A stretch of DNA of 64,000 nt, from the NCBI GenBank assembly GCA_035941675.1, contig DASZDT010000004.1:1837-65836 (forward strand). Direction: 5' to 3'. Position 1 is the first letter of the stretch. Every line of letters starts with the position of its first letter. A program made the position numbers and the translations under genes. Under the pieces are notes generated by a model. It searched no databases. It saw only the letters and a program-made list of their open reading frames with translations, and had not been told where the DNA came from. Below, piece after piece: positions 14,414 through 22,866 of this stretch. This stretch comes from Chthoniobacterales bacterium. GTDB lineage: Bacteria > Verrucomicrobiota > Verrucomicrobiia > Chthoniobacterales > UBA10450.

Positions 14414-15217
14414 TTACCGTGGCATCGGGATAGCGTCGTCGGCCCGCTCGATTTTCAGAACCGGATGAATCTCCCACGCGGTCGCTCGCCAGGGGTTGTG
14501 ATAGCGGTTGCGCGCGATGGAGTGAATCGTGACGCCGACATCCTTCGTTTTGTCGTTGTGCTCGTCGTCCCAAAGAAGATAGCCGGTCAGGCGGACCTTC
14601 TGCGCTTTGTGCCCGGTCGATTCGTAAGTGGCATCGCGACGCCGGAAAAAAGCCGCCAGCTCCTGGATTCGAATGCCGTCATGGTAGATGGCGTTTTGCG
14701 TTCGCGGCGTGATTTCGCAAATGATCGGCGTCGGGTCGCCCGGCTGCGGCGGATGATCGAGCGGCTGTTCAAACATCTCGAGATGCCAGTCATGGAAGTC
14801 GAGGCTGCCGCAGATGGTCGACTCCCCCGGGCCTGGATACGCGAGCACAAGATAACCAGTTAACGAAACAAGCGGCGCTTGGAGAATCTCGAGCCGTCGC
14901 TTTTGGGCGGGACTCAGATCTTTTCGGTGTTTGCTTTTGGTTTCTGCATCGAACCGAGCGACGTGTTTCAACAGGCTCTTCATGTCGAACGGTGTCACCG
15001 CAAGTTTGGAAACATCGGCGGCCGACCGGTTCTTCAATCGATTAAGCTCACCATTGTCCGGACTCTTCGCGCTTTTTTCCCCTCGCGTGTCGCAATTCCA
15101 CGTTGTCAGATCGATCTTTTTTAGTTCGCGATCATCGGATATTTGCTCGGCGGCGTTGGCGCAGCGGAACGCGATCAGCGCGAGAGCAACCAGACTTCGG
15201 CGGAGGAAGCGGGTCAT
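14414..15217 (-). CDS. secreted hypothetical protein
   Basis: ATG at 15217 gives the signal peptide MTRFLRRSLVALALIAFRCANA. The rest is protein-like but no family is recognised. Confidence 0.6.
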   Translation of the reverse strand: MTRFLRRSLVALALIAFRCANAAEQISDDRELKKIDLTTWNCDTRGEKSAKSPDNGELNRLKNRSAADVSKLAVTPFDMKSLLKHVARFDAETKSKHRKDLSPAQKRRLEILQAPLVSLTGYLVLAYPGPGESTICGSLDFHDWHLEMFEQPLDHPPQPGDPTPIICEITPRTQNAIYHDGIRIQELAAFFRRRDATYESTGHKAQKVRLTGYLLWDDEHNDKTKDVGVTIHSIARNRYHNPWRATAWEIHPVLKIERADDAIPMPR

Positions 15218-15230
15218 CGGGGCGCCATTC

Positions 15231-15304
15231 GTCACCCCATGTAGTAACCGCCGTTCACATTCAAAACGTGGCCGGTGATGAAGCTCGCCATGTATGTGCG
15301 AGGA
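15231..15304 (-). pseudogene. orphan 3'-terminal fragment of a FabG-like SDR gene (duplicate of 18569-18643)
   Basis: 15231-15291 matches 18569-18629 at 57/61 nt by hand alignment. It encodes ...MASFITGHVLNVNGGYYMG* versus ...MASYITGHVLNVNGGYYMG* of the intact gene. Similarity continues with a 1-nt indel (gcgaggaa) and is then lost. Confidence 0.75.
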
Positions 15305-15340
15305 AAATACCTCAAACAACGTGGATTGGGATAGTCACCG

Positions 15341-15865
15341 TCACCAGTATTCGATCCTCAAGTCGACTGGCGCACCGCGGGCCCTCAGTTCTTTCCCCGC
15401 TTGATCTATGAAACGCATTCCGGCATTTCGATCGCGAGTTACTAAGATCAATCCGTTCTCGGCTGCAATGCTGGCTATTAAAAGGTCACGCTCGTCAATT
15501 CCCAACTCCCGGCCACTGACACGGTCCATTAATTCCTCGGGCAACTTTTCGCGGTGCCCTCTGGTCTGTTTGGTTGCGTGCATTCGCCACAGCTGCGCGC
15601 GCAGATGTGAATAAGGTTCCACTGTATTTGGACCGATTCCTAATGGTTGGGGGAAGCTTTCAAAGCACTTCCGAATTCCACTGCGCTGAAATTCATCTGC
15701 CAGTTCGGATTTAGCCATTCCAAACTCAATTTCGGCGATCGCAATTACCGGCAGCCAAACATGGTCTAGCGCGCGAACGCGTTTTTCGATCTCATCGTGA
15801 TCCGCATGGCGACTGTTTGCCAACACCGAAATCACATTGGTGTCGAGTAGATAACCGTCGCTCAC
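15341..15865 (-). CDS. PIN-domain ribonuclease (VapC-like toxin), 174 aa
   Basis: LLDTNVIS (first Asp), AIAEIEFG (Glu), ERDLLIASIAAENGLILVTRDRN (third and fourth acidic residues). GTG start overlaps the stop of the upstream methyltransferase (GTGA at 15862-15865). Confidence 0.85.
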   Translation of the reverse strand: MSDGYLLDTNVISVLANSRHADHDEIEKRVRALDHVWLPVIAIAEIEFGMAKSELADEFQRSGIRKCFESFPQPLGIGPNTVEPYSHLRAQLWRMHATKQTRGHREKLPEELMDRVSGRELGIDERDLLIASIAAENGLILVTRDRNAGMRFIDQAGKELRARGAPVDLRIEYW

Positions 15866-18414
15866 GCCACATCCTCAAGCACTGCAGCGATGCTCGGCTC
15901 AATGCGATCAGGCAGCGAGTCGACCAGATATGAACCCCTGCATCGCTCGAAATCTGTTGCGATGAATCTCCACAGCGGGATAGTTGGTTTAAAGCTCTCA
16001 GGAAAGTATCCATCGAAGGAGAAGGGAACTCGTCGCGGCGTTCTCGCGTCGTTAAAATAGTCTAAAAGGCGACGTTCTAATCGCGGCGGAAGATTGTAAG
16101 CCCGCAGGATCACGGCATCAATTTGCAGGAGTAAATTTCGCGCAATATCGTTGCCGGCGCGTGCGCCCCACAATTCCAAATCGTTGTGTGGAAGGGATCG
16201 AAGAGACTGCAAGTAGGCATCAATTAACCTGTGAAGAAGGGCATGATCCTCTCTGGACACCTCCGGCACCGGCATTTGGCGCAACGTTGAAACACGTATG
16301 TGCATCCTGCCTTCATGCGTCGCGACATACGCGGCTGCGATCGGGCTATTCAGGAGCGCAACGATCGTAGTTGCGGGATAGCCTAATCGCGGCCACACCG
16401 CGTGAAAATTCTGGGATACGACGAGACCGCTCGGATCAAAAAAGGCCGCTAGACGCCACGGCCCCCGCGACAAACGCACAGCATTTACGATTACCTTTGG
16501 GTGCTCCCAAGACAACCGCCAAGCATTACCGCGTTGGAAAGACTGCTTGCCGCATAAGAAAGTGGTCTCGGGTGTCTCGAATGATCGAAAATCACGCTCT
16601 ACAGAATTAAGGCCACGACGGAAATGATCATTCGGAGATCCGGATAGGTACAGGTGTCGACGGAATGGTTGCTTCCATTCTACGCCGCGGTGGATCCGAG
16701 CAATCTTTTGCAATTGGGCATGTGTGTTAAGCCGATCCCACACTTCGCTCAATTCGGGTATGTTCCATGAGCGAGCGACTTCCGATATTGACCTTTCCGA
16801 TATGTCAGTTCGACTTGCATGATGTTGCTGAACAAAGCGGTGCCTGTCTTCCTCGCGGACCTCTGAAAATTGTAACGAAACCAATTTGGAGCCCCGTCTG
16901 ACCGACTTCGCAATCAAGAGACATGTTTCTAAGTCGACGCCCTGGAAGATGCGATCCGGAAGAGATACGACTTCAATTTCGGAATAGCGTTTCGCCAGTC
17001 GCTCGCGGGCTTCACGGTAACTTAGGCCCGAAACTGCCTGCCTCGGTAAAACGAAACCGACCAACCCCGCAGGAGAGAGGGCGGAAAGGACCTTGCTCAG
17101 GACAGCGACGGGCTTTTTGAGGAGCCCTTGTCTTCGAGCGGCATGCGATGGGCCGAAATCCTGAAAGGGGGGGTTGCAAAGGACGATCTGGGCACTCTGG
17201 AGACTTTTGTCGAAATCGGGCGATCTAAAAATGTCTGCACAATGTAACTTCCAGCCGCTGTGGTTAGGAAAGTCGGCGAGCGTTACGCATAATCGACTCA
17301 CTTCGAGTGCGAATGCATCAATTTCGAACCCGCGCAACATTTTCACAAAATACTTATGCCGCTCCTGTCCCGACATGTTTGGAGATAACAAATCGCGAAG
17401 CCTTTTTAGTGCAGCGACGAGGAAAACGCCGTGCCCGGAGCAGGGTTCGACTACGCGCCTGTCGGCCTCCGGAATATCCTCGAACGGCAACTTGTTGACA
17501 ATATATCTAGCAATGTTTCGAGGCGTGCTGTGAATGCCTAGTTCCGCACGAGCGCCGGCGTCGACGAGCGTGTTCTCGTAGATGTAAGACAGGATATCGA
17601 CAGATAGATTCTGAAAGCTGAATCCATCCCACAGCCGATCAAAGACTGCTTGTTGCGACGCTCTGTCATGTAGTACTGGCGAGTCTTCGCCATAATAATC
17701 AGCAACTCTTTCAAGAATAACGGCAGGCGTTGCGCTATCTAGCGACCGAAAGCCTTGGACTGAGCGGTCATGTAATACTCGTGCGGCCAACATCCTGAAT
17801 ACGAGGCGAAATAAACGCCTCGGATCCGGGGGCAAACCGGTACGGGTCTGATGTGCATTCGTCACATCAACAATTGCCGCAGTTAGTACTTCGTGAAGTT
17901 TTTGGCTAACGATTTGTTCGAGCGCCGGGACTAAATTGAGATCGAGGAACTCTAATTGCGCGGCAGTCGTCGCCCCGGGAATGTTTTTCGCCCGTAAGAT
18001 TGATTGCGGTTTCCAGTCTAGCGCGCTATCGCGAAAAAGTGCGTCGATACGCTCATGGGGAATCTCTTCTCGCACGTGACATGTAGTGCTGGCATCCCTA
18101 CCAATCCGCCAAGGGAGAATGCCATTTGGCTGTACCTCTAGCCCGATCGGTGCACCTAATGCGCGGTATTGGGCGACGCGATCTGCCGTGGCTGGCGTTT
18201 TAGTAGGAAATACCGCAAAACATGCCGAGTCGTACGAGAACGGTGTTTGGCCGAACACCGCGCAGACTCTGCGCTTTGGTGCAAGCGAATCAAACCAGTC
18301 TACAAATTCATAGTCTTCGTCGCGAAGGCCGGCTGAATAGCCAATGTGGTTCAGTCCTCCGAGGACGGCACGGTAACCCTTTTCATGACGGTCGTTAACG
18401 AACGTTGGGATCAT
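15862..18414 (-). CDS. gamma-class N6-adenine DNA methyltransferase (Eco57I/type IIG-like MTase core plus TaqI-like C-terminal specificity region) with unrecognised ~280-aa N-terminal domain
   Basis: Motif order IYENTL...GIHSTPRNIARYIV, VVEPCSGHGVFLVAAL (motif I), IVLCNPPF (motif IV), then a long C-terminal region (NFHAVWP...LLNSPIAAAYV). 850 aa. Confidence 0.85.
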   Translation of the reverse strand: MIPTFVNDRHEKGYRAVLGGLNHIGYSAGLRDEDYEFVDWFDSLAPKRRVCAVFGQTPFSYDSACFAVFPTKTPATADRVAQYRALGAPIGLEVQPNGILPWRIGRDASTTCHVREEIPHERIDALFRDSALDWKPQSILRAKNIPGATTAAQLEFLDLNLVPALEQIVSQKLHEVLTAAIVDVTNAHQTRTGLPPDPRRLFRLVFRMLAARVLHDRSVQGFRSLDSATPAVILERVADYYGEDSPVLHDRASQQAVFDRLWDGFSFQNLSVDILSYIYENTLVDAGARAELGIHSTPRNIARYIVNKLPFEDIPEADRRVVEPCSGHGVFLVAALKRLRDLLSPNMSGQERHKYFVKMLRGFEIDAFALEVSRLCVTLADFPNHSGWKLHCADIFRSPDFDKSLQSAQIVLCNPPFQDFGPSHAARRQGLLKKPVAVLSKVLSALSPAGLVGFVLPRQAVSGLSYREARERLAKRYSEIEVVSLPDRIFQGVDLETCLLIAKSVRRGSKLVSLQFSEVREEDRHRFVQQHHASRTDISERSISEVARSWNIPELSEVWDRLNTHAQLQKIARIHRGVEWKQPFRRHLYLSGSPNDHFRRGLNSVERDFRSFETPETTFLCGKQSFQRGNAWRLSWEHPKVIVNAVRLSRGPWRLAAFFDPSGLVVSQNFHAVWPRLGYPATTIVALLNSPIAAAYVATHEGRMHIRVSTLRQMPVPEVSREDHALLHRLIDAYLQSLRSLPHNDLELWGARAGNDIARNLLLQIDAVILRAYNLPPRLERRLLDYFNDARTPRRVPFSFDGYFPESFKPTIPLWRFIATDFERCRGSYLVDSLPDRIEPSIAAVLEDVA

Positions 18415-18481
18415 TTCGACGTTGTCATGAATGTTCGGATGGTGAGTGGCTGCAATCGCATGACAATTAGCATACGGGGTG

Positions 18482-18496
18482 GGACAAATATTGTCC
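18482..18496. promoter_or_regulatory. perfect 6-3-6 palindrome GGACAA-ATA-TTGTCC about 70 nt upstream of the methyltransferase start (candidate operator)
   Basis: Read directly: gggacaaatattgtcc. A second small palindrome TGCAC-AGGA-GTGCA lies at 18535-18548. Confidence 0.25.
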
Positions 18497-18568
18497 TATC
18501 CCGAAAAAAATTCAGAACCGTCGCATTTTGGCGCTGCACAGGAGTGCAACAATCTAAATAAATCGGCT

Positions 18569-19324
18569 TCACCCCATGTAATAACCACCGTTCACGTTCA
18601 AAACGTGGCCGGTGATGTAGCTCGCCATGGGCGAAGCGAGGAAGAGCGCGGCGTTCACGATTTCATGCACGTCGCCGAGGCGGCCGAGCGGGATCTGCTT
18701 TTTGAAGTTTTCCGTCACTTCGTCGGGCATCCCTTTGCTCATGCCGACGTCGATGAATCCGGGCGCGATCGCGTTCACGGTAATGTTTTGCCGGGCCAGC
18801 TCCCGCGCCGAGACTTTGGTCAGCGCGATGATGGCCGCTTTGCTCGACGAATAATTCGCCTGGCCGAACAATCCCATCTGGCCGCTGACCGACGACAGAT
18901 TGATGACCCGCCCGTCGTTGCGCAGGATCGTTGCCGCCGCCTTGGTGACGTTGAAGGTCCCGGTGACGTTGACGCGGAGGACGCTTTCGAATTCCTCGAC
19001 CGCCATTTTTTTCATCGTCCGGTCGCGGATGATTCCCGAATTGTTGACCAGGACGTCGAGCCCGCCGTGGCGCTCCTGGATCTGCTTCATCATGGCCTCG
19101 ACCTGCGCCGGGTTCGTCACGTCGCACTCAATTACGAGCGGCTCGCGTAACTCCGCCGCAACCTTGGCTGCATCCGTCTTGTTCGTTCCATCCGGATCGG
19201 CCACATAATTCACCACGCACTTCGCCCCGCGCGCTCCAAACGCCTTGATCATTTCCGCCCCGATCCCGCGCGAACTGCCGGTCACGAGAATGATCTTGCC
19301 GCCGAAATCCAAAGGATCACTCAT
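18569..19324 (-). CDS. SDR-family oxidoreductase, 3-oxoacyl-ACP reductase (FabG)-like
   Basis: TGSSRGIG cofactor motif, NNSGI, catalytic YSSSK, C-terminal GHVLNVNGGYYMG. Confidence 0.9.
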   Translation of the reverse strand: MSDPLDFGGKIILVTGSSRGIGAEMIKAFGARGAKCVVNYVADPDGTNKTDAAKVAAELREPLVIECDVTNPAQVEAMMKQIQERHGGLDVLVNNSGIIRDRTMKKMAVEEFESVLRVNVTGTFNVTKAAATILRNDGRVINLSSVSGQMGLFGQANYSSSKAAIIALTKVSARELARQNITVNAIAPGFIDVGMSKGMPDEVTENFKKQIPLGRLGDVHEIVNAALFLASPMASYITGHVLNVNGGYYMG

Positions 19325-19796: not shown

Positions 19797-19858
19797 CCGG
19801 CGACGTTAGGCTGGAAACGCTTTGCCTGACAAGGGATTGCCGTTAAGTTTTGCGCCTC

Positions 19859-21016
19859 ATGTCCGCACCGATTCGCGTTCTCACCGCCGTTCCGATTTGC
19901 GATGGGCACGACAGCGCGATCAACACGATCAACCTCGAGTTCATCCGGCACGGGATCGAAGTCGTTTATCTCGGGTTCCATCGTTACGTCAGCGATATCG
20001 TCCGCGCCGCGATCCAGGAGGACGTCGCCGCGGTCGGCATCTCCAGTTACAACGGGGGGCACATCGAGTTCTTTGCGGAAGTCGTGAAGCAATTGAAGAA
20101 GCGCGGCGCCGACGACATCAGGGTTTTCGGCGGCGGCGGGGGCACGATCACGCATGATGACCAGCGCATCATGCAGAAGCGCGGCGTGGATAAGATCTTC
20201 TTCGCCGGAACATCGCTGACCGACATGGCGGACTTCGTCCACGACCGGTACGGCAAACGGCCGAAGCGGCGGGCGACGAAAGATTCGGAGATGAATCTCG
20301 CGCGAAAGCTGACCGCGATCGAAGACAGCTACGCGGGGAAAAGTAGAAAGGCTAAAATAGAAAGTAGAAATTCGAAGACCGGTAAGACGCGCGTGATCGG
20401 ATTTACCGGGCCGGGTGGAGCGGGCAAGACAACGCTGATCGACGAGCTGGTGCTGCGGCTGCTGAAGCGCGATCCGAAATCGCGGATCGCGATTCTGTCG
20501 CACGATCCGAGTGTGGTGGGCGCAGGCGCGCTGCTCGGCGATCGCGCCACCATGATCAACTCGCAGGACGACCGGGTTTTCATGCGGAGCATGGCCACGC
20601 GCGGACAGGCCGGCGGATTGTCGCCCGCGACGGAAGATTGCCTGCGGCTCCTCGCGCAGGAAGGATTCGATTACGTCATTATCGAGACGGTCGGCACCGG
20701 CCAGGAAGCGATGCCGTTCCAAAACAAGCTGGTCGATCAAACCGTGCTGGTGATGAACCCGGACTACGGCGCGCGCCTCCAGTTGCAAAAGATCGTGATG
20801 CTCGACCTGGCCGACATTGTGGTGGTGAACAAGAGCGATCAGGAGCGGGCGCGAACCGCGATGAGCGAGATCGAGCGGCGGCTCGAGCTGAACAAACGGG
20901 ACCAGCAACTCGTCGCGACCGTTGCGAAACGGCACCGCGACGCCGGCGTCGATGCGTTGTGTGATTTGCTGACCAAGCCGGGCAGCCCGGCCTCGAAGAA
21001 AGGAAAGAGAAAATGA
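19859..21016 (+). CDS. B12-binding domain fused to MeaB/ArgK-type G-protein chaperone (N-terminal two-thirds of an IcmF-like mutase)
   Basis: VLTAVPICDGHDSAINT (DxH B12-binding motif), then P-loop GFTGPGGAGKTTLIDEL and VVVNKSDQ (NKxD). ATG 19859 preferred over TTG 19850. Confidence 0.85.
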   Translation: MSAPIRVLTAVPICDGHDSAINTINLEFIRHGIEVVYLGFHRYVSDIVRAAIQEDVAAVGISSYNGGHIEFFAEVVKQLKKRGADDIRVFGGGGGTITHDDQRIMQKRGVDKIFFAGTSLTDMADFVHDRYGKRPKRRATKDSEMNLARKLTAIEDSYAGKSRKAKIESRNSKTGKTRVIGFTGPGGAGKTTLIDELVLRLLKRDPKSRIAILSHDPSVVGAGALLGDRATMINSQDDRVFMRSMATRGQAGGLSPATEDCLRLLAQEGFDYVIIETVGTGQEAMPFQNKLVDQTVLVMNPDYGARLQLQKIVMLDLADIVVVNKSDQERARTAMSEIERRLELNKRDQQLVATVAKRHRDAGVDALCDLLTKPGSPASKKGKRK

Positions 21017-22866
21017 GCAAGCTAGGACGAGTGGTGGAAGCGGTCGAGAACTACAACGCGTTCGTCGAGGACGAAGTAAAGCGCGCGCGGACCGACAAAA
21101 AGTTTGGCGACCAGATGGTGAAGCGCTGGAACGAGATCAAGGCCGGCATTCCCGTCGGCACGGCGCCGACCGGTTTGAAATTGCCGCGGCTCGCTTTGCC
21201 GGAGATCGACGAAGCGGGCGACATCACCCGCTACTTGTTAGGTGACGGATTGCCAGGCGAATTCCCGTTCCTCAACGGCGCGTATCGCGAAATGTATCTG
21301 GAGCCGCTCCACAACCCCGCGATCGAGACCGGCACTTACGAGAAGAACGGGCACGGCGCGAAATCGAAGCTCAACGGAAGCAAGAACGGCGCGCGCAACG
21401 GCGCCGTCGCCAAGCCGCAGCAAGCCGAAGAGCCGACTCGTTTGTTCTCCGGCCTGATGCTGGCCGAAGACACCAACGAACGTTTCCATTTTCTCGGACG
21501 CCACCAGCGTTCGAAACGGCTCAGCACCGCGTTTGACGGTCCCACCCTTTACGGGATCGATTCCGACGCGCCCGGGATTCTCGGCAAAATCGGCGAGGGC
21601 GGGGTCGCGGTCGACACCGTCGAGGACATGGTCCGGCTTTACGATGGATTCGATCTTGGGTCGCCGGATTTCTCGGCGTCGATGACGATCAGCGGCCCGG
21701 CCCCGATCATCATGGCGATGTACATCGCGGCGGCGAAACGGCGGTTCGGTCCGGGCGTTGTCCCGAAACTTCGCGGCACCATCCAGGCCGACATTTTCAA
21801 GGAAGTCCAGGCGCAGAACGAGACGATCTTCCCGGTGGAAGCGTCGTTGCGGTTCCTGACGGACATGATGGAATTCACGACGCGCGAGATGCCGCGCTGG
21901 TACCCGGTTTCAATCAGCGGCTATCACATCGGCGAAGCGGGTTCGACGCCGGTCCAGCAGGCGGCTTACACGCTCTCGAACGGTTTCGCGTATGCGGAGA
22001 TGATGGCGGCGCGCGGCATTCCCGTGGATGAGTTCGGCCCCCGGCTCTCGTTCTTTCTCGATTGCGGACTCGATGTCGAATACATCGCGCTGACTCGCGT
22101 CTCGCGTCGCATCTGGGCGATCGGAATGCGGGACGCATTCGGCGCCGGCCACAAGGCGCAAATGTTCAAGGTGCACACCCAGACGAGCGGCCGTTCCCTC
22201 GTCGCGGCGGAATTCAAGAACAACCTCACCCGCACGGCCGCCGAGCTGATGCTTTCCTACATGAACGGGACCAACTCGTGCCACTCGAACAGCGCCGACG
22301 AGCCGTTCACCACGCCGAGCGAAGAATGGATCCGTCTCGCGGCGCATGGCCAGGCGATCCTGCTCGACGAGTCCGGCATCTTCAAACACACGATGAACAT
22401 GCTGAGCGGATCGCCCGGGATGAAGGCGGTCGAGCGGGCCGTGGAAGCCGCGATCCTGGAAGAATTCCGCGAGATCGAGCGCCTCGGCGGAGTGATGGGG
22501 TCGGTCGAGAATCGTTATCAACGCAGCCAGATCCAGGCGGCGGCGCATCGTTACGAACAGCAGATCTACAGCGGCGTCCGGCCCATCATTGCCCTGAACA
22601 AGTACCGCAACGACAGCGAGGAGATGCCGGAGTTCGAGCTCGCCCGGACCCCGCGCGCCCGGCAGCAGTTGCAGGTCGATCGCCTGAAGAAGTTCAAGCA
22701 AAAGAACGCGGCCAAGGCCGGGAAGGCGCTCGAGAAACTGGCCGCCGTGGTGGAGACCGATGAGAACTGCTTCCCGGCCCTGCTCGAAGCCGCCGAGGTC
22801 TGCTCGTTAGGCCAGATCTGCGAACGCCTGCAGGAAGTCGTGGGGCGGTTCCGGCCAATGGTGTAG
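21013..22866 (+). CDS. methylmalonyl-CoA mutase-family substrate-binding (TIM barrel) subunit, IcmF C-terminal-like
   Basis: RLSTAFDGPTLYGIDSD, GEGGVAVDTVEDMVRLYDGFDL, SASMTISGPAPIIMAMYIAAA, GTIQADIFKE. ATGA overlap with the preceding B12/MeaB gene. Confidence 0.9.
   Translation: MSKLGRVVEAVENYNAFVEDEVKRARTDKKFGDQMVKRWNEIKAGIPVGTAPTGLKLPRLALPEIDEAGDITRYLLGDGLPGEFPFLNGAYREMYLEPLHNPAIETGTYEKNGHGAKSKLNGSKNGARNGAVAKPQQAEEPTRLFSGLMLAEDTNERFHFLGRHQRSKRLSTAFDGPTLYGIDSDAPGILGKIGEGGVAVDTVEDMVRLYDGFDLGSPDFSASMTISGPAPIIMAMYIAAAKRRFGPGVVPKLRGTIQADIFKEVQAQNETIFPVEASLRFLTDMMEFTTREMPRWYPVSISGYHIGEAGSTPVQQAAYTLSNGFAYAEMMAARGIPVDEFGPRLSFFLDCGLDVEYIALTRVSRRIWAIGMRDAFGAGHKAQMFKVHTQTSGRSLVAAEFKNNLTRTAAELMLSYMNGTNSCHSNSADEPFTTPSEEWIRLAAHGQAILLDESGIFKHTMNMLSGSPGMKAVERAVEAAILEEFREIERLGGVMGSVENRYQRSQIQAAAHRYEQQIYSGVRPIIALNKYRNDSEEMPEFELARTPRARQQLQVDRLKKFKQKNAAKAGKALEKLAAVVETDENCFPALLEAAEVCSLGQICERLQEVVGRFRPMV

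What the first reader, a model, noticed from the sequence alone, without database searches (positions are those of the whole stretch)
15341..18414. Candidate novel two-gene system: N6-adenine DNA methyltransferase occupying the antitoxin slot of a PIN (VapC-like) toxin
The 850-aa ORF has the gamma-class amino-MTase motif order: GIHSTPRNIARYIV, then VVEPCSGHGVFLV (SAM binding), then VLCNPPF (catalytic). A long TaqI-type specificity-like C-terminal half follows. The first ~280 aa match nothing I recognise, and I could not place a convincing PD-(D/E)xK motif there. Its TGA overlaps the GTG of a 174-aa PIN protein (GTGA at 15862-15865) carrying the four canonical acidic positions. In vapBC operons the gene in exactly this upstream overlapping position is a 70-90-aa antitoxin, and none exists here. 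The only alternative ORF (15792-16013) is out of frame and not antitoxin-like. One precedent for an RNase toxin kept latent by restriction-modification proteins is PrrC within the EcoprrI hsd locus. Three hypotheses follow. (a) The MTase C-terminal tail acts as a fused antitoxin. (b) An MTase-guarded abortive-infection RNase is released when a phage inhibits or titrates the MTase. (c) A type IIG-like enzyme with a cryptic nuclease domain is paired with a back-up RNase.
Basis: partly seen in the sequence, partly recalled or inferred. Interest (0 to 1): 0.8.

Follow-up and report, generated by a model that had tools for sequence, protein, structure and literature searches.

The report
Methyltransferase with built-in antitoxin tail plus toxin
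A large restriction-enzyme-like DNA methyltransferase and a small PIN toxin gene form a widespread, mobile two-gene unit with no separate antitoxin; relatives show that the methyltransferase's variable C-terminal tail takes the antitoxin's place, a pairing I found described nowhere.

Summary
An 850-aa N6-adenine methyltransferase gene (15862-18414, minus strand) overlaps by GTGA a 174-aa PIN gene (15341-15865), and no antitoxin gene is present.

- **Linkage:** it is essentially obligate both ways. 72 of 78 genome loci have the PIN after the MTase, 71 of 75 metagenome loci have the MTase before the PIN, and all 125 junctions lie within ±19 nt, across at least 10 phyla.
- **Large protein:** it folds like single-chain Type IIG/IIL restriction-modification enzymes (best match BpuSI). 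Its N-terminal domain lacks a family-wide nuclease motif.
- **Tail and partner:** beyond residue ~794 the tail varies, and the downstream gene varies with it: PIN (most common), RES, HNH, a Shedu-type nuclease, and unassigned proteins. RES-linked relatives carry the Xre/MbcA/ParS antitoxin toxin-binding domain in the tail, and another variant carries DUF433.

For the PIN clade it rests on analogy, because that tail matches no known antitoxin.

The pair is also a mobile cassette of about 3.3 kb. It has low GC and is bracketed here by a 61-nt duplication of the 3' end of the neighbouring SDR gene.

The trigger and any defence role are untested. I rate it a new variant of known kinds (toxin-antitoxin and restriction-modification), and interesting.

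The parts
15862..18414 (-). Gene for the 850-aa Type IIG/IIL-like N6-adenine DNA methyltransferase/specificity protein (stop codon TGA at 15862-15864).
   Evidence: ORF. Pfam N6_Mtase E 2e-15. 100% identical to an NCBI protein from a Chthoniobacterales MAG, with hundreds of full-length homologs. AF2 pLDDT 83.6. Best fold match BpuSI 3s1s, E 7e-19, over the whole length, followed by CamA/BseCI, PglX, DrdV and MmeI.
18061..18414 (-). N-terminal alpha/beta domain (aa 1-118), with a weak restriction-endonuclease-like fold and no canonical PD-(D/E)xK motif.
   Evidence: AF2 pLDDT 89.9, topology H-E-E-E-H-E-E. Foldseek finds no hit at E<=1e-3; the top hits are DrdV, RE-like fold proteins 3ijm/1wdj, NucC and HsdR. 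D39, D62 and E93 are 98-100% conserved in this clade, but D62->R and E93->I/V/A in the alphaproteobacterial clade. No PDB or Pfam sequence hit.
17632..18057 (-). Helical connector (aa 120-261) between the N-terminal domain and the MTase domain.
   Evidence: Helices 120-261 in both AF2 models. Aligned with the N-terminal half of DrdV over 286 columns. R141 and K143 are invariant or nearly so.
16762..17601 (-). Gamma-class N6-adenine MTase catalytic domain (aa 272-551), with motif X GIHSTP, motif I EPCSGHGVF and motif IV NPPF.
   Evidence: Pfam. Invariant motif residues. PDB profile hits to BsaXI, EcoKI M and BseCI. The motif order matches that published for MmeI.
16255..16749 (-). Target-recognition-like domain (aa 556-720, TaqI_C-like). 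It is not hypervariable in this family.
   Evidence: Weak TaqI_C hit, E 0.0099. Beta-rich region in the AF2 model. Fold matches to CamA/BseCI/MmeI, which are MTase+TRD proteins. Conservation in this region (0.37-0.61) is similar to the rest of the protein.
16060..16254 (-). C-terminal helical region (aa 721-785), ending in the conserved 'IDA.IL.AY.LP..LER.LL..F' helix. This is the last part of the core shared by all variants.
   Evidence: Helices 721-739, 752-773 and 777-785. Conserved across variants with different partners.
15865..16059 (-). Variable C-terminal tail (aa 786-850; divergence between variants begins after R794), proposed to dock and neutralise the toxin. In this clade it carries the conserved 'RPVPF.FG.YFP.DF.PTIPLW' motif.
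   Evidence: Coil plus short helices, pLDDT 58-86. Residues 781-810 are among the best-conserved stretches within the PIN-linked clade. The tail is replaced whenever the partner gene differs. In RES-linked relatives this position holds Xre/MbcA/ParS antitoxin domains, and in another variant DUF433. Partial correlation with PIN divergence is 0.38. No antitoxin homology is detectable for this tail type.
15341..15865 (-). Gene for the 174-aa VapC-like PIN protein (GTG start), the predicted toxin/effector.
   Evidence: PF01850 E 3.6e-11. Sub-threshold NCBIfam VapC hits. Invariant D8, E45/E47, D124/D127 and D145. The nearest solved structures are Rickettsia VapC2 (3zvk) and FitB. It has 361 homologs, and in the survey they almost always sit next to the MTase.
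15862..15865 (-). GTGA overlap of the MTase stop codon and the PIN start codon (translational coupling).
   Evidence: Sequence. Across 125 related junctions the distance is always -19 to +19 nt; 39 overlap and 78 are 0-10 nt apart.
18569..18629 (.). Direct repeat, copy 1. This is the true 3' end of the SDR/FabG-like gene (18569..19324, minus strand), just upstream of the cassette.
   Evidence: the repeat finder family D1: 61 nt, 93% identical, spacing 3337. SDR Pfam hits.
15232..15292 (.). Direct repeat, copy 2. This is a relic copy of the SDR gene's 3' end, just downstream of the PIN gene. It marks the other edge of the inserted cassette.
   Evidence: The stretch between the repeats is 50-54% GC against about 62% in the flanks. 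The same site is occupied in the relative L004, with a 96-nt repeat at 86% identity.
18415..18568 (-). 154-nt leader between the SDR stop codon and the MTase start codon. It belongs to the inserted cassette and is the presumed promoter region. It contains no ORF.
   Evidence: The consensus scan found no sigma-70-like site here, so the promoter is not identified.

Best explanation
The two genes form one functional and mobile unit: a toxin-armed, restriction-enzyme-like methyltransferase.

**The large protein.** It has the single-chain layout of Type IIG/IIL restriction-modification enzymes:
- an N-terminal endonuclease-like domain;
- a helical connector;
- an N6-adenine MTase domain;
- a target-recognition domain;
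- an extra C-terminal tail.

**The proposed mechanism.** The tail plays the part that a separate VapB antitoxin plays in ordinary vapBC operons. It binds the co-translated PIN RNase and keeps it inactive, so the toxin is tethered to a DNA-recognising, DNA-methylating enzyme.

The toxin would be set free, stopping translation and growth, when the large protein is lost, clipped or conformationally changed. The most likely causes are engagement with unmethylated foreign DNA or binding by a phage anti-restriction protein, giving abortive infection. Loss of the cassette would give addiction.

**Shown here:**
- the architecture;
- obligate linkage and tight coupling;
- modular co-variation of tail and toxin;
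- bona fide antitoxin domains in the tail of relatives;
- mobility of the cassette.

**Inferred, not shown:**
- physical binding and neutralisation in the PIN clade;
- toxicity of the PIN protein;
- methylation activity;
- the trigger and a defence role.
For: **Linkage**
- The same-family PIN lies directly downstream in 72 of 78 genome loci from at least 10 phyla.
- The MTase lies directly upstream of the PIN in 71 of 75 metagenome loci.
- All 125 junctions fall within -19 to +19 nt.
- MTase and PIN divergences correlate at r = 0.83 over 83 non-redundant pairs.
- No third gene is conserved family-wide, and there is no hidden ORF.

**Modularity of tail and partner**
- The core is conserved up to about residue 794, and the tail beyond it differs with the partner.
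- PIN is the majority partner.
- HNH is the partner in L070 and L173.
- An SduA_C nuclease is the partner in L174.
- RES is the partner in L168 and L169.
- A weakly DUF5615-like ORF follows a tail carrying DUF433 at E 2e-18.
- Unassigned partners occur in L072, L078, L085 and L172.

**Antitoxin domains in the tail**
- In RES-linked proteins the tail hits Xre-MbcA-ParS_M and the toxin-binding Xre_MbcA_ParS_C domain, collinearly and directly before the RES gene.
- The same families are precomputed hits in 21 of about 69 long homologs.
- Single tails also hit PrlF antitoxin and Xre-MbcA-ParS_M.

**Both proteins look active**
- MTase motifs are invariant.
- PIN acidic residues are invariant.

**N-terminal nuclease is not family-wide**
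- D62 and E93 are replaced in the alphaproteobacterial clade, which fits effector function being supplied in trans.

**Tail features in this clade**
- The tail is well conserved and partly extended coil.
- It co-varies with the PIN protein at partial r = 0.38.
Against: - For the PIN-linked clade the tail has no detectable similarity to any antitoxin. Its role is therefore inferred by position and analogy only.
- The Xre/MbcA/ParS hits in L168 are individually below Pfam's gathering scores (22.1 against 24.5 bits, and 15.8 against 27.8 bits).
- The co-variation test is weak, and the MTase core scores as high as the tail (0.42).
- Some partners (HNH, SduA_C) are DNases, which would also fit a trans-acting restriction subunit.
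- In the window's clade the neighbours are mostly housekeeping genes, so defence-island support is lacking there.
- Within this clade D39, D62 and E93 are nearly invariant, so an active cis nuclease is not excluded.
- A large, stable protein is an unusual antitoxin for classical post-segregational killing.
- No complex prediction could be run.
Confidence: 0.6

Rival explanations
1. Split restriction enzyme. The PIN protein (and HNH or SduA_C in relatives) is the DNA-cleaving subunit. It is recruited by the tail to a methyltransferase/specificity protein whose own nuclease domain has decayed. The pair would then be a classical restriction-modification system with a PIN-fold endonuclease that cuts unmethylated invading DNA.
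For: - The architecture is Type IIG/IIL-like.
- There is no family-wide PD-(D/E)xK motif in the N-terminal domain.
- Partners include true DNase families: HNH and SduA_C.
- Coupling is tight.
- MTase motifs are invariant.
- The cassette inserts with a long target duplication, as restriction-modification units do.
Against: - The PIN protein is VapC-like; its nearest solved relatives are VapC2 and FitB, which are RNase-type toxins by established knowledge.
- RES partners are NAD+-targeting toxins, not nucleases, and come with their cognate antitoxin toxin-binding domain. This points to inhibition rather than recruitment.
- The TRD is not hypervariable.
- No PIN-fold restriction endonuclease is known. 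Matelska et al. 2017 note that none has been shown.
Confidence: 0.13
2. A complete Type IIG restriction-modification enzyme plus an independent back-up or addiction toxin. The N-terminal domain is an active but divergent nuclease that does the restricting. The PIN protein is a second line, analogous to PrrC, released only when the enzyme is inhibited.
For: - The N-terminal fold is weakly restriction-endonuclease-like.
- D39, D62 and E93 are 98-100% conserved within the window's clade.
- The full-length model best matches the bifunctional enzyme BpuSI.
- Fold hits include MTase-Ocr complexes, which shows such enzymes are targets of anti-restriction proteins.
- The PrrC precedent.
Against: - There is no lysine at the ExK position, and position 95 is variable (R 47%, Q 29%).
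- D62 and E93 are replaced in sister clades that keep the same two-gene design.
- No significant structural or sequence match to any nuclease was found.
Confidence: 0.15
3. Purely selfish addiction module. The pair is a mobile toxin-antitoxin-like cassette whose only function is its own maintenance and spread. Methylation is incidental, or serves as an epigenetic mark without any role in phage defence.
For: - The cassette has lower GC than its flanks in 46 of 57 loci.
- Long imperfect direct repeats bracket just the two genes at six independent sites.
- In the window's clade it is mostly inserted alone among housekeeping genes.
- Decayed copies exist.
Against: - Alphaproteobacterial relatives sit in clear defence islands: DarTG/HEPN, Shedu, Type ISP/McrB and a BseRI-like gene.
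- Strict conservation of the MTase motifs and of a TRD argues that DNA recognition matters.
- Swapping of effectors between RNase, DNase and NADase types is typical of immune systems (established knowledge of CBASS, Thoeris and retron effectors).
Confidence: 0.1
4. Accidental adjacency: an orphan methyltransferase next to a vapC gene whose vapB antitoxin has decayed.
For: No antitoxin gene is present.
Against: Bidirectional conserved synteny across at least 10 phyla, universal tight junctions, co-divergence at r = 0.83, and no vapB remnant or conserved alternative ORF.
Confidence: 0.01

Closest known systems
VapBC / FitAB type II toxin-antitoxin modules (nearest solved toxins: Rickettsia VapC2 3zvk, Neisseria FitB 2h1c)
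   Same: A VapC-like PIN toxin with the four acidic residues. The toxin is the second gene and overlaps the first. The pair is a mobile two-gene unit.
   Different: The first gene is not a 70-90-aa DNA-binding antitoxin but an 850-aa DNA methyltransferase. No RHH, AbrB, Phd or HTH domain is present. The PIN protein carries a conserved insertion of roughly 20-25 residues relative to VapC2 (profile positions ~93-114, absent from VapC2). Neutralisation by the tail is inferred, not shown.
Type IIG/IIL single-chain restriction-modification enzymes (BpuSI 3s1s, MmeI 5hr4, DrdV 7lo5)
   Same: The domain order is N-terminal alpha/beta domain, helical connector, gamma-class N6A MTase, then TRD. Motifs X, I and IV (NPPF) follow the published MmeI order.
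   Different: There is no D...ExK motif like MmeI's VD70-X9-E80MK82. There is an extra variable C-terminal tail and an obligatory downstream toxin gene. Sequence profiles give only weak or sub-threshold MmeI_Mtase and Eco57I hits.
PrrC-EcoprrI (an anticodon nuclease held latent by a Type Ic restriction-modification enzyme and released by phage T4 Stp)
   Same: An RNase-type suicide effector is encoded with, and presumably silenced by, restriction-modification proteins. This offers a plausible guard logic.
   Different: PrrC is an ABC-ATPase-type anticodon nuclease inside a multi-subunit Type I hsd locus. Here a PIN protein is coupled to a single-chain Type II-like enzyme through a dedicated tail. 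No homology exists, and the trigger is unknown.
Xre-RES (MbcTA / ParST) toxin-antitoxin modules
   Same: In relatives (L168, L169 and at least 21 clusters) the MTase tail carries the Xre/MbcA/ParS middle and C-terminal toxin-binding domains, directly before a RES toxin gene.
   Different: The antitoxin's HTH DNA-binding part is replaced by a whole methyltransferase. This variant is not the one in the window, where the toxin is a PIN protein and the tail is unrelated.
PIN genes coupled to Type I restriction-modification subunits (Matelska et al. 2017, PMC5499597)
   Same: PIN-like toxins co-transcribed with restriction-modification genes, sometimes without an antitoxin.
   Different: Those cases involve HsdM/HsdS/HsdR operons. 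The authors state they saw no PIN in a Type II context, and that no direct toxin-antitoxin/restriction-modification interaction had been shown.
Restriction-modification units inserted with a long target duplication (Furuta et al. 2010, PMC2853133)
   Same: A small gene unit with no mobility gene, atypical GC content, and bracketed by direct repeats longer than 30 bp that duplicate the target, often at the 3' end of a gene.
   Different: Here the inserted unit is MTase plus toxin rather than R plus M genes. The repeats are imperfect (86-100% identical).

Membership tests
VapBC type II toxin-antitoxin | PIN-domain toxin with the conserved acidic active-site residues | tested here: met
   PF01850 E 3.6e-11. 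D8, E45/E47, D124/D127 and D145 are invariant in 34 homologs.
VapBC type II toxin-antitoxin | A separate small antitoxin gene (RHH, AbrB, Phd or HTH N-terminal domain) immediately upstream | tested here: not met
   The upstream gene is an 850-aa MTase. There is no conserved small ORF.
VapBC type II toxin-antitoxin | Toxin neutralised by direct binding of the antitoxin's C-terminal region | not testable with these tools
   Only indirect evidence is available: tail/toxin co-variation and antitoxin domains in the tails of relatives. No complex prediction was available.
Type IIG/IIL restriction-modification enzymes (MmeI/BpuSI) | Single chain ordered as nuclease, connector, gamma-class N6A MTase, then TRD | tested here: met
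   Full-length model against BpuSI, E 7e-19 over the whole length; DrdV and MmeI also match. Secondary-structure layout.
Type IIG/IIL restriction-modification enzymes (MmeI/BpuSI) | N-terminal PD-(D/E)xK catalytic motif (MmeI: D70-X9-E80-X-K82) | tested here: not met
   No D...ExK motif. The candidates D62 and E93 have no lysine, with position 95 being R or Q, and both are replaced in sister clades. Published MmeI motif.
Type IIG/IIL restriction-modification enzymes (MmeI/BpuSI) | Amino-MTase motifs X, I and IV (NPPF/Y) | tested here: met
   GIHSTP, EPCSGHGVF and NPPF are invariant and in the order published for MmeI.
Type IIG/IIL restriction-modification enzymes (MmeI/BpuSI) | DNA cleavage and methylation activities in one polypeptide | not testable with these tools
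   Needs biochemistry.
PrrC-type guard of a restriction-modification system | PrrC/RloC-family ABC-ATPase anticodon nuclease embedded in a Type I hsd locus | tested here: not met
   The effector is a PIN protein. There are no hsdR, hsdS or hsdM neighbours in the window or in the surveyed loci.
MADS (methylation-associated defence system), MAD2 methyltransferase | Full-length match to MAD2, with mad1 and mad3-8 neighbours | tested here: not met
   The PADLOC mad2 hit covers only the MTase domain (263-550). NCBIfam MAD2 scores 28.8 bits against a cutoff of 720. No multi-gene neighbourhood is present.
BREX (PglX methyltransferase) | PglX-family MTase with PglZ, BrxC and BrxL neighbours | tested here: not met
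   NCBIfam PglX scores 11 bits against a cutoff of 500. PglX matches by fold only, at the MTase/TRD level. No such neighbours are present.

The most novel reading that the evidence does not exclude
This family (792 clusters at 50% identity with E <= 1e-30) may be an unrecognised class of immune system. A restriction-enzyme-like methyltransferase would read the methylation state of DNA, or be targeted by anti-restriction proteins. Instead of cutting with its own decayed nuclease domain, it would release whichever toxin-antitoxin-type toxin is docked on its exchangeable C-terminal antitoxin adaptor: PIN, RES, HNH, a Shedu-type nuclease or others. That would be restriction by abortive infection, with plug-and-play toxins. 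It would also make the methyltransferase the largest and first DNA-modifying antitoxin.
Probability: 0.35. Interest if true: 0.85.

Novelty: new variant of a known kind. Interest (0 to 1): 0.72.

Why it matters
- **A concrete link between two systems.** It would physically join toxin-antitoxin modules and restriction-modification, which have been compared for decades but not shown to interact directly. A DNA methyltransferase would serve as the antitoxin through an exchangeable adaptor tail.
- **A place for orphan toxins.** It gives many apparently orphan PIN, RES and HNH toxin genes and "N-6 DNA methylase" annotations a functional context.
- **A way to find new pairs.** The variable tails and their partners offer a natural library of toxin/adaptor pairs, several of them unassigned.
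- **A simple test system.** It is a two-gene system for asking how DNA-modification status or anti-restriction proteins are turned into an abortive-infection signal.
- **Experimental access.** Cultured hosts carry it (Agrobacterium tumefaciens A74a, Sinorhizobium chiapasense, Sphingomonas sp. So64.6b, Rhodopirellula sp. SWK7), so it is directly testable.

Tried and rejected
1. **Hidden antitoxin.** The 73-aa out-of-frame ORF is not conserved, and no small flanking ORF is shared across the family.
2. **Known defence systems.** PADLOC gives only generic MTase-domain hits and nothing for the PIN protein. MAD2 and PglX score far below their cutoffs.
3. **Sequence identification of the N-terminal 118 aa.** Nothing in PDB sequences or Pfam, even at E <= 10. 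Foldseek gives only weak hits.
4. **Sequence identification of the PIN-type tail.** Nothing in Pfam, PDB or NCBIfam.
5. **Hypervariable TRD as a sign of diversifying restriction-modification specificity.** Not seen.
6. **Defence-island enrichment for the window's clade.** Only a few of 137 neighbouring ORFs hit PADLOC families, and most are housekeeping genes. The gene calls were crude.
7. **The ~3.3 kb contigs as circular elements.** No terminal overlaps were found.
8. **Phage carriage.** No hit in 50,697 phage records.
9. **Empty-site comparison for the SDR insertion.** The exact SDR protein is not on record, so this was not resolved.
10. **Promoter and terminator scan.** Nothing above the shuffled expectation, and nothing in the leader.
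11. **HEPN assignment for the L078/L085 partner and PIN assignment for the L072 partner.** Pfam does not confirm either, so they are left unassigned.
12. **Literature.** Seven searches found no description of this pairing. The library is incomplete, so prior description elsewhere cannot be excluded.

Full report
**1. The observation**

The window holds an 850-aa ORF at 15862..18414 (minus strand) and a 174-aa ORF at 15341..15865 (minus strand). The first gene's TGA overlaps the second gene's GTG as GTGA at 15862-15865.

Pfam assigns N6_Mtase to residues 272-551 (E 2e-15). It also gives weak MmeI_Mtase and TaqI_C hits on the large protein, and PIN (PF01850, E 3.6e-11) on the small one. NCBIfam gives only sub-threshold VapC hits for the small protein.

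The PIN residues D8, E45/E47, D124/D127 and D145 are invariant too.

There is no antitoxin gene. A third-frame ORF like the 73-aa one at 15792-16013 spans the junction in only 17 of 132 related loci. That ORF is also less conserved than the true frames in the closest relative, so it is a chance ORF.

**2. Is the pairing real?**

Both proteins have hundreds of full-length homologs. The window protein is 100% identical to an NCBI entry from a Chthoniobacterales (Verrucomicrobiota) metagenome-assembled genome.

- **From the MTase side.** A scan of one genome per species (185,579 species) found 112 loci, of which 80 were fetched. They come from Verrucomicrobiota, Planctomycetota, Chloroflexota, Acidobacteriota, Desulfobacterota, Nitrospirota, Nitrospinota, Myxococcota, Binatia, Zixibacteria and Patescibacteria. 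In 72 of the 78 loci with sequence downstream, a PIN gene of the same family follows directly on the same strand.
- **From the PIN side.** Starting from the PIN protein in metagenomes, 71 of 75 loci with upstream sequence have the MTase directly upstream. Of the four exceptions:
  - L126 has a frameshifted MTase separated from the PIN gene by about 1.6 kb.
  - L117 has a transposase-like ORF in its place.
  - L125 and L127 were not resolved.
- **Junctions.** All 125 measurable junctions lie between -19 and +19 nt; 39 overlap and 78 are 0-10 nt apart.
- **Co-divergence.** MTase and PIN pairwise divergences correlate at r = 0.83 over 83 non-redundant pairs.
- **Third genes.**
  - No third gene is shared by the family.
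  - A MerR-family ORF precedes the MTase in 21 loci.
  - An unassigned 150-165-aa ORF overlaps the MTase start in the alphaproteobacterial clade.
  - Neither is present in the window.

Chance adjacency and a decayed vapB are therefore excluded.

**3. What the large protein is**

A profile of the family hits only MTase domains in PDB sequences: BsaXI, EcoKI M, BseCI and LlaBIII.

The full-length AlphaFold model (pLDDT 83.6) best matches the bifunctional Type IIG enzyme BpuSI (3s1s, E 7e-19) across its whole length. CamA/BseCI, BREX PglX/BrxX, DrdV and MmeI follow. So it has the single-chain Type IIG/IIL layout and is not a plain methyltransferase.

The N-terminal 275 residues model confidently (pLDDT 89.9) as an alpha-beta-beta-beta-alpha-beta-beta core plus a helical bundle. 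Foldseek finds nothing significant. The leading weak hits are the N-terminal half of DrdV, restriction-endonuclease-like fold proteins (3ijm, 1wdj), NucC and HsdR. Sequence profiles of residues 1-118 find nothing in PDB or Pfam.

Within the window's clade, D39, D62 and E93 are 98-100% conserved. However, there is no lysine in an ExK arrangement, and position 95 is R, Q or another residue. In an alignment that includes distant variants, D39 and K143 stay invariant, but D62 becomes Arg and E93 becomes Ile, Val or Ala in the alphaproteobacterial clade. The MTase motifs remain invariant throughout.

MmeI's published motif is VD70-X9-E80MK82, and nothing equivalent is conserved here. I conclude that the N-terminal domain is probably a decayed or repurposed endonuclease-like domain. 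Residual activity in the window's clade cannot be excluded.

The TRD-like region is no more variable than the rest of the protein.

**4. The key result: a variable tail that changes with the downstream toxin**

The conserved core ends with the helix 'IDA.IL.AY.LP..LER.LL..F' and an invariant Arg (R794 in the window protein). Beyond that point the sequences are unrelated between variants. Each tail type goes with a different downstream, tightly coupled gene:

| Tail type | Downstream gene | Loci |
|---|---|---|
| 'RPVPF.FG.YFP.DF.PTIPLW' (window type) | this PIN family | majority, including the window |
| A different short tail | PIN proteins only 26-29% identical to the window's | rhizobial plasmids, L171 |
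| Coiled-coil-like | HNH nuclease | L070, L173 |
| Weak Gp49-like hit | SduA_C (Shedu-type) nuclease | L174 |
| 'DEDRLS.RKLF' motif | unassigned 156-aa protein | L172 |
| ~115-aa extension | unassigned 127-131-aa protein | L078, L085 |
| ~150-aa extension with Xre/MbcA/ParS domains | RES-domain toxin | L168, L169 |
| DUF433 (E 2e-18) | small ORF weakly resembling DUF5615 | L170 |

The RES case is the most informative.
- RES scores E 1.5e-16 in Rhizobium sp. Q54 plasmid 8, and the same arrangement occurs on the Sphingomonas sp. So64.6b chromosome.
- The Q54 extension hits the middle domain of Xre/MbcA/ParS antitoxins (residues 845-891, E 0.011) and their C-terminal toxin-binding domain (902-929, E 1.5e-4).
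- Both hits are slightly below Pfam's gathering scores. They are collinear, and they end directly before their cognate toxin gene.
- The same two families are precomputed hits in 21 of about 69 long (930-948 aa) homologs from Hoeflea, Sphingomonas, Mesorhizobium, Xanthobacter and others.

A library-wide HMMER scan counts 792 representative clusters at E <= 1e-30. Among the best 150, 45 carry alternative tails. Single tails among these hit PrlF antitoxin and Xre-MbcA-ParS_M.

In short, the same methyltransferase chassis carries exchangeable toxin-specific adaptors, some of them recognisable antitoxin toxin-binding domains. Each is followed by a matching toxin.

**5. What this implies for the window's pair**

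By position and analogy, residues ~786-850 are the PIN-docking, antitoxin-like part.
- The tail is well conserved within the clade.
- It is modelled as extended coil plus short helices at moderate confidence. That resembles the way VapB and FitA C-termini wrap their toxins (established knowledge of 3zvk and 2h1o, the nearest solved PIN relatives).
- Its divergence tracks PIN divergence after controlling for the rest of the protein (partial r = 0.38). The catalytic core scores 0.42 and the other segments are near zero. This is a weak test, because pairwise distances are not independent.
- The PIN-type tail has no detectable similarity to any known antitoxin.

Binding and neutralisation are therefore inferred, not shown. 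RES partners are not nucleases, and they come with an inhibitor domain. That argues against the idea that the small protein is simply the cutting subunit of a restriction enzyme. The HNH and SduA_C partners keep that rival alive for some variants.

**6. Trigger and biological role (inferred)**

Three non-exclusive possibilities remain:
- The toxin is released when the enzyme meets unmethylated foreign DNA.
- The toxin is released when a phage anti-restriction protein binds the enzyme, following the PrrC/EcoprrI logic. Related MTases are known Ocr targets, as seen among the fold hits.
- The module causes addiction when the cassette is lost.

The genomic context is mixed. Alphaproteobacterial relatives sit in clear defence islands: DarT/DarG plus HEPN proteins, Shedu, Type ISP plus McrB, and a BseRI-like gene. 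In the window's clade the pair usually sits alone among housekeeping genes. Only a few of 137 neighbouring ORFs from 40 loci hit PADLOC families. No copy was found in phage records. Three were found on rhizobial plasmids.

**7. The pair is a mobile cassette**

In the window, a 61-nt direct repeat (93% identical) lies at 15232-15292 and 18569-18629. It duplicates the 3' end of the SDR/FabG-like gene and brackets exactly the two genes plus a 154-nt leader. GC content falls to 50-54% between the repeats, against about 62% outside.

The relative L004, whose MTase is 89% identical, has the cassette at the same site with a 96-nt repeat. Other independent sites carry repeats of 30-172 nt at 90-100% identity: L003/L012 at the end of gatB, L007, L023, L075 and L083. 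The pair has lower GC than its flanks in 46 of 57 loci, by 5.1 points on average.

No integrase or transposase lies inside the cassette. This matches 'insertion with long target duplication', described for restriction-modification units by Furuta et al. 2010. The many ~3.2-3.7 kb contigs are not circular. They probably reflect assembly breaks at the cassette's edges.

**8. Comparison with what is known, and novelty**

The module combines features of four known things:
- vapBC toxin-antitoxin modules (the toxin and the operon geometry);
- Type IIG/IIL enzymes (the chassis);
- the PrrC-type coupling of a suicide RNase to restriction-modification proteins (the possible logic);
- Xre-RES modules (the adaptor in relatives).

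It fails defining features of each, as the membership table shows. PADLOC v2 has no model for the PIN protein and only generic MTase-domain hits for the large protein. MAD2 and PglX are far below threshold.

The PIN superfamily survey of 2017 saw PIN genes with Type I restriction-modification subunits. It explicitly saw none in Type II contexts, and noted that no direct toxin-antitoxin/restriction-modification interaction was known. Seven literature searches found no description of this pairing. The library is incomplete, so this is absence of evidence only.

I rate the finding a new variant of known kinds: conserved, widespread and experimentally accessible.

**9. Verdict**

- **Observation:** confirmed.
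supported. Hypothesis (a) is favoured, (b) is open, and (c) is half right.
- **Best explanation:** a toxin-armed, Type IIG-like methyltransferase whose C-terminal tail is the antitoxin (confidence 0.6).
- **Main uncertainties:** physical neutralisation in the PIN clade, the activity of the N-terminal domain, and the trigger.

Noticed in passing
window 15232-15292 and 18569-18629: A 61-nt direct repeat (93% identical) duplicates the 3' end of the SDR/FabG-like gene and brackets the MTase-PIN cassette. GC content drops to 50-54% between the copies. Six independent sites in other genomes show the same long, imperfect target duplication, with no mobility gene inside.
   Followed up: yes
L059 5478-5936, plus 20 other loci (e.g. 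L039, L055, L062, L099, L104): In one subclade, mainly Desulfobacterota, a MerR-family HTH gene (PF13411, E 1e-10) sits directly upstream of the MTase on the same strand. It may be a controller-like regulator. It is absent from the window.
   Followed up: partly
L167 3510-4007, L169 4546-5004, L171 4513-5004: Alphaproteobacterial relatives, both PIN-linked and RES-linked, share an unassigned 150-165-aa ORF whose stop overlaps the MTase start. The copies are 37-46% identical to one another and have no Pfam family. This may be a third component in that clade.
   Followed up: partly
L173 2651-3001: In the HNH-linked variant an Xre-type HTH_3 gene abuts the MTase start. A canonical Phd/YefM-PIN pair and an integrase gene lie just downstream.
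   Followed up: no
window 14414-15217 (-): The gene downstream of the cassette encodes a protein of about 267 aa with a signal-peptide-like N-terminus and no Pfam or NCBIfam family. Its GC content is intermediate (55-59%). The listed TTG start at 15319 runs into the repeat relic, so the true start is probably the ATG near 15217. A 289-aa homolog occupies the same position in L004.
   Followed up: no
L004 2832-3434 and 12041-12844: In the close relative that shares the window's insertion site, a HEPN_AbiU2 gene and a NYN-domain gene lie within 5 kb of the cassette. The methylmalonyl-CoA mutase and MeaB genes are syntenic with window 19850-22866.
   Followed up: no
PIN protein residues ~94-115 (window ~15521-15586): Relative to the nearest solved VapC2 and FitB toxins, this PIN family has a conserved insertion of roughly 20-25 residues (HAT..RGHKEKLPEEL, with H104, E106, P109 and E110 nearly invariant). 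Its role is unknown.
   Followed up: no
many metagenome contigs of 3.2-3.7 kb (e.g. L111, L115, L158): A striking number of contigs carrying the pair are about the size of the cassette. None shows terminal overlap, so they are probably assembly breaks at cassette boundaries rather than circular molecules.
   Followed up: yes
L079 2260-2544, L082 5992-7941, L126 1056-3339, L117 2815-3918: Decayed copies exist: a frameshifted PIN gene, a truncated or frameshifted MTase gene, and insertions of IS or transposase-like sequence between or in place of the genes.
   Followed up: partly
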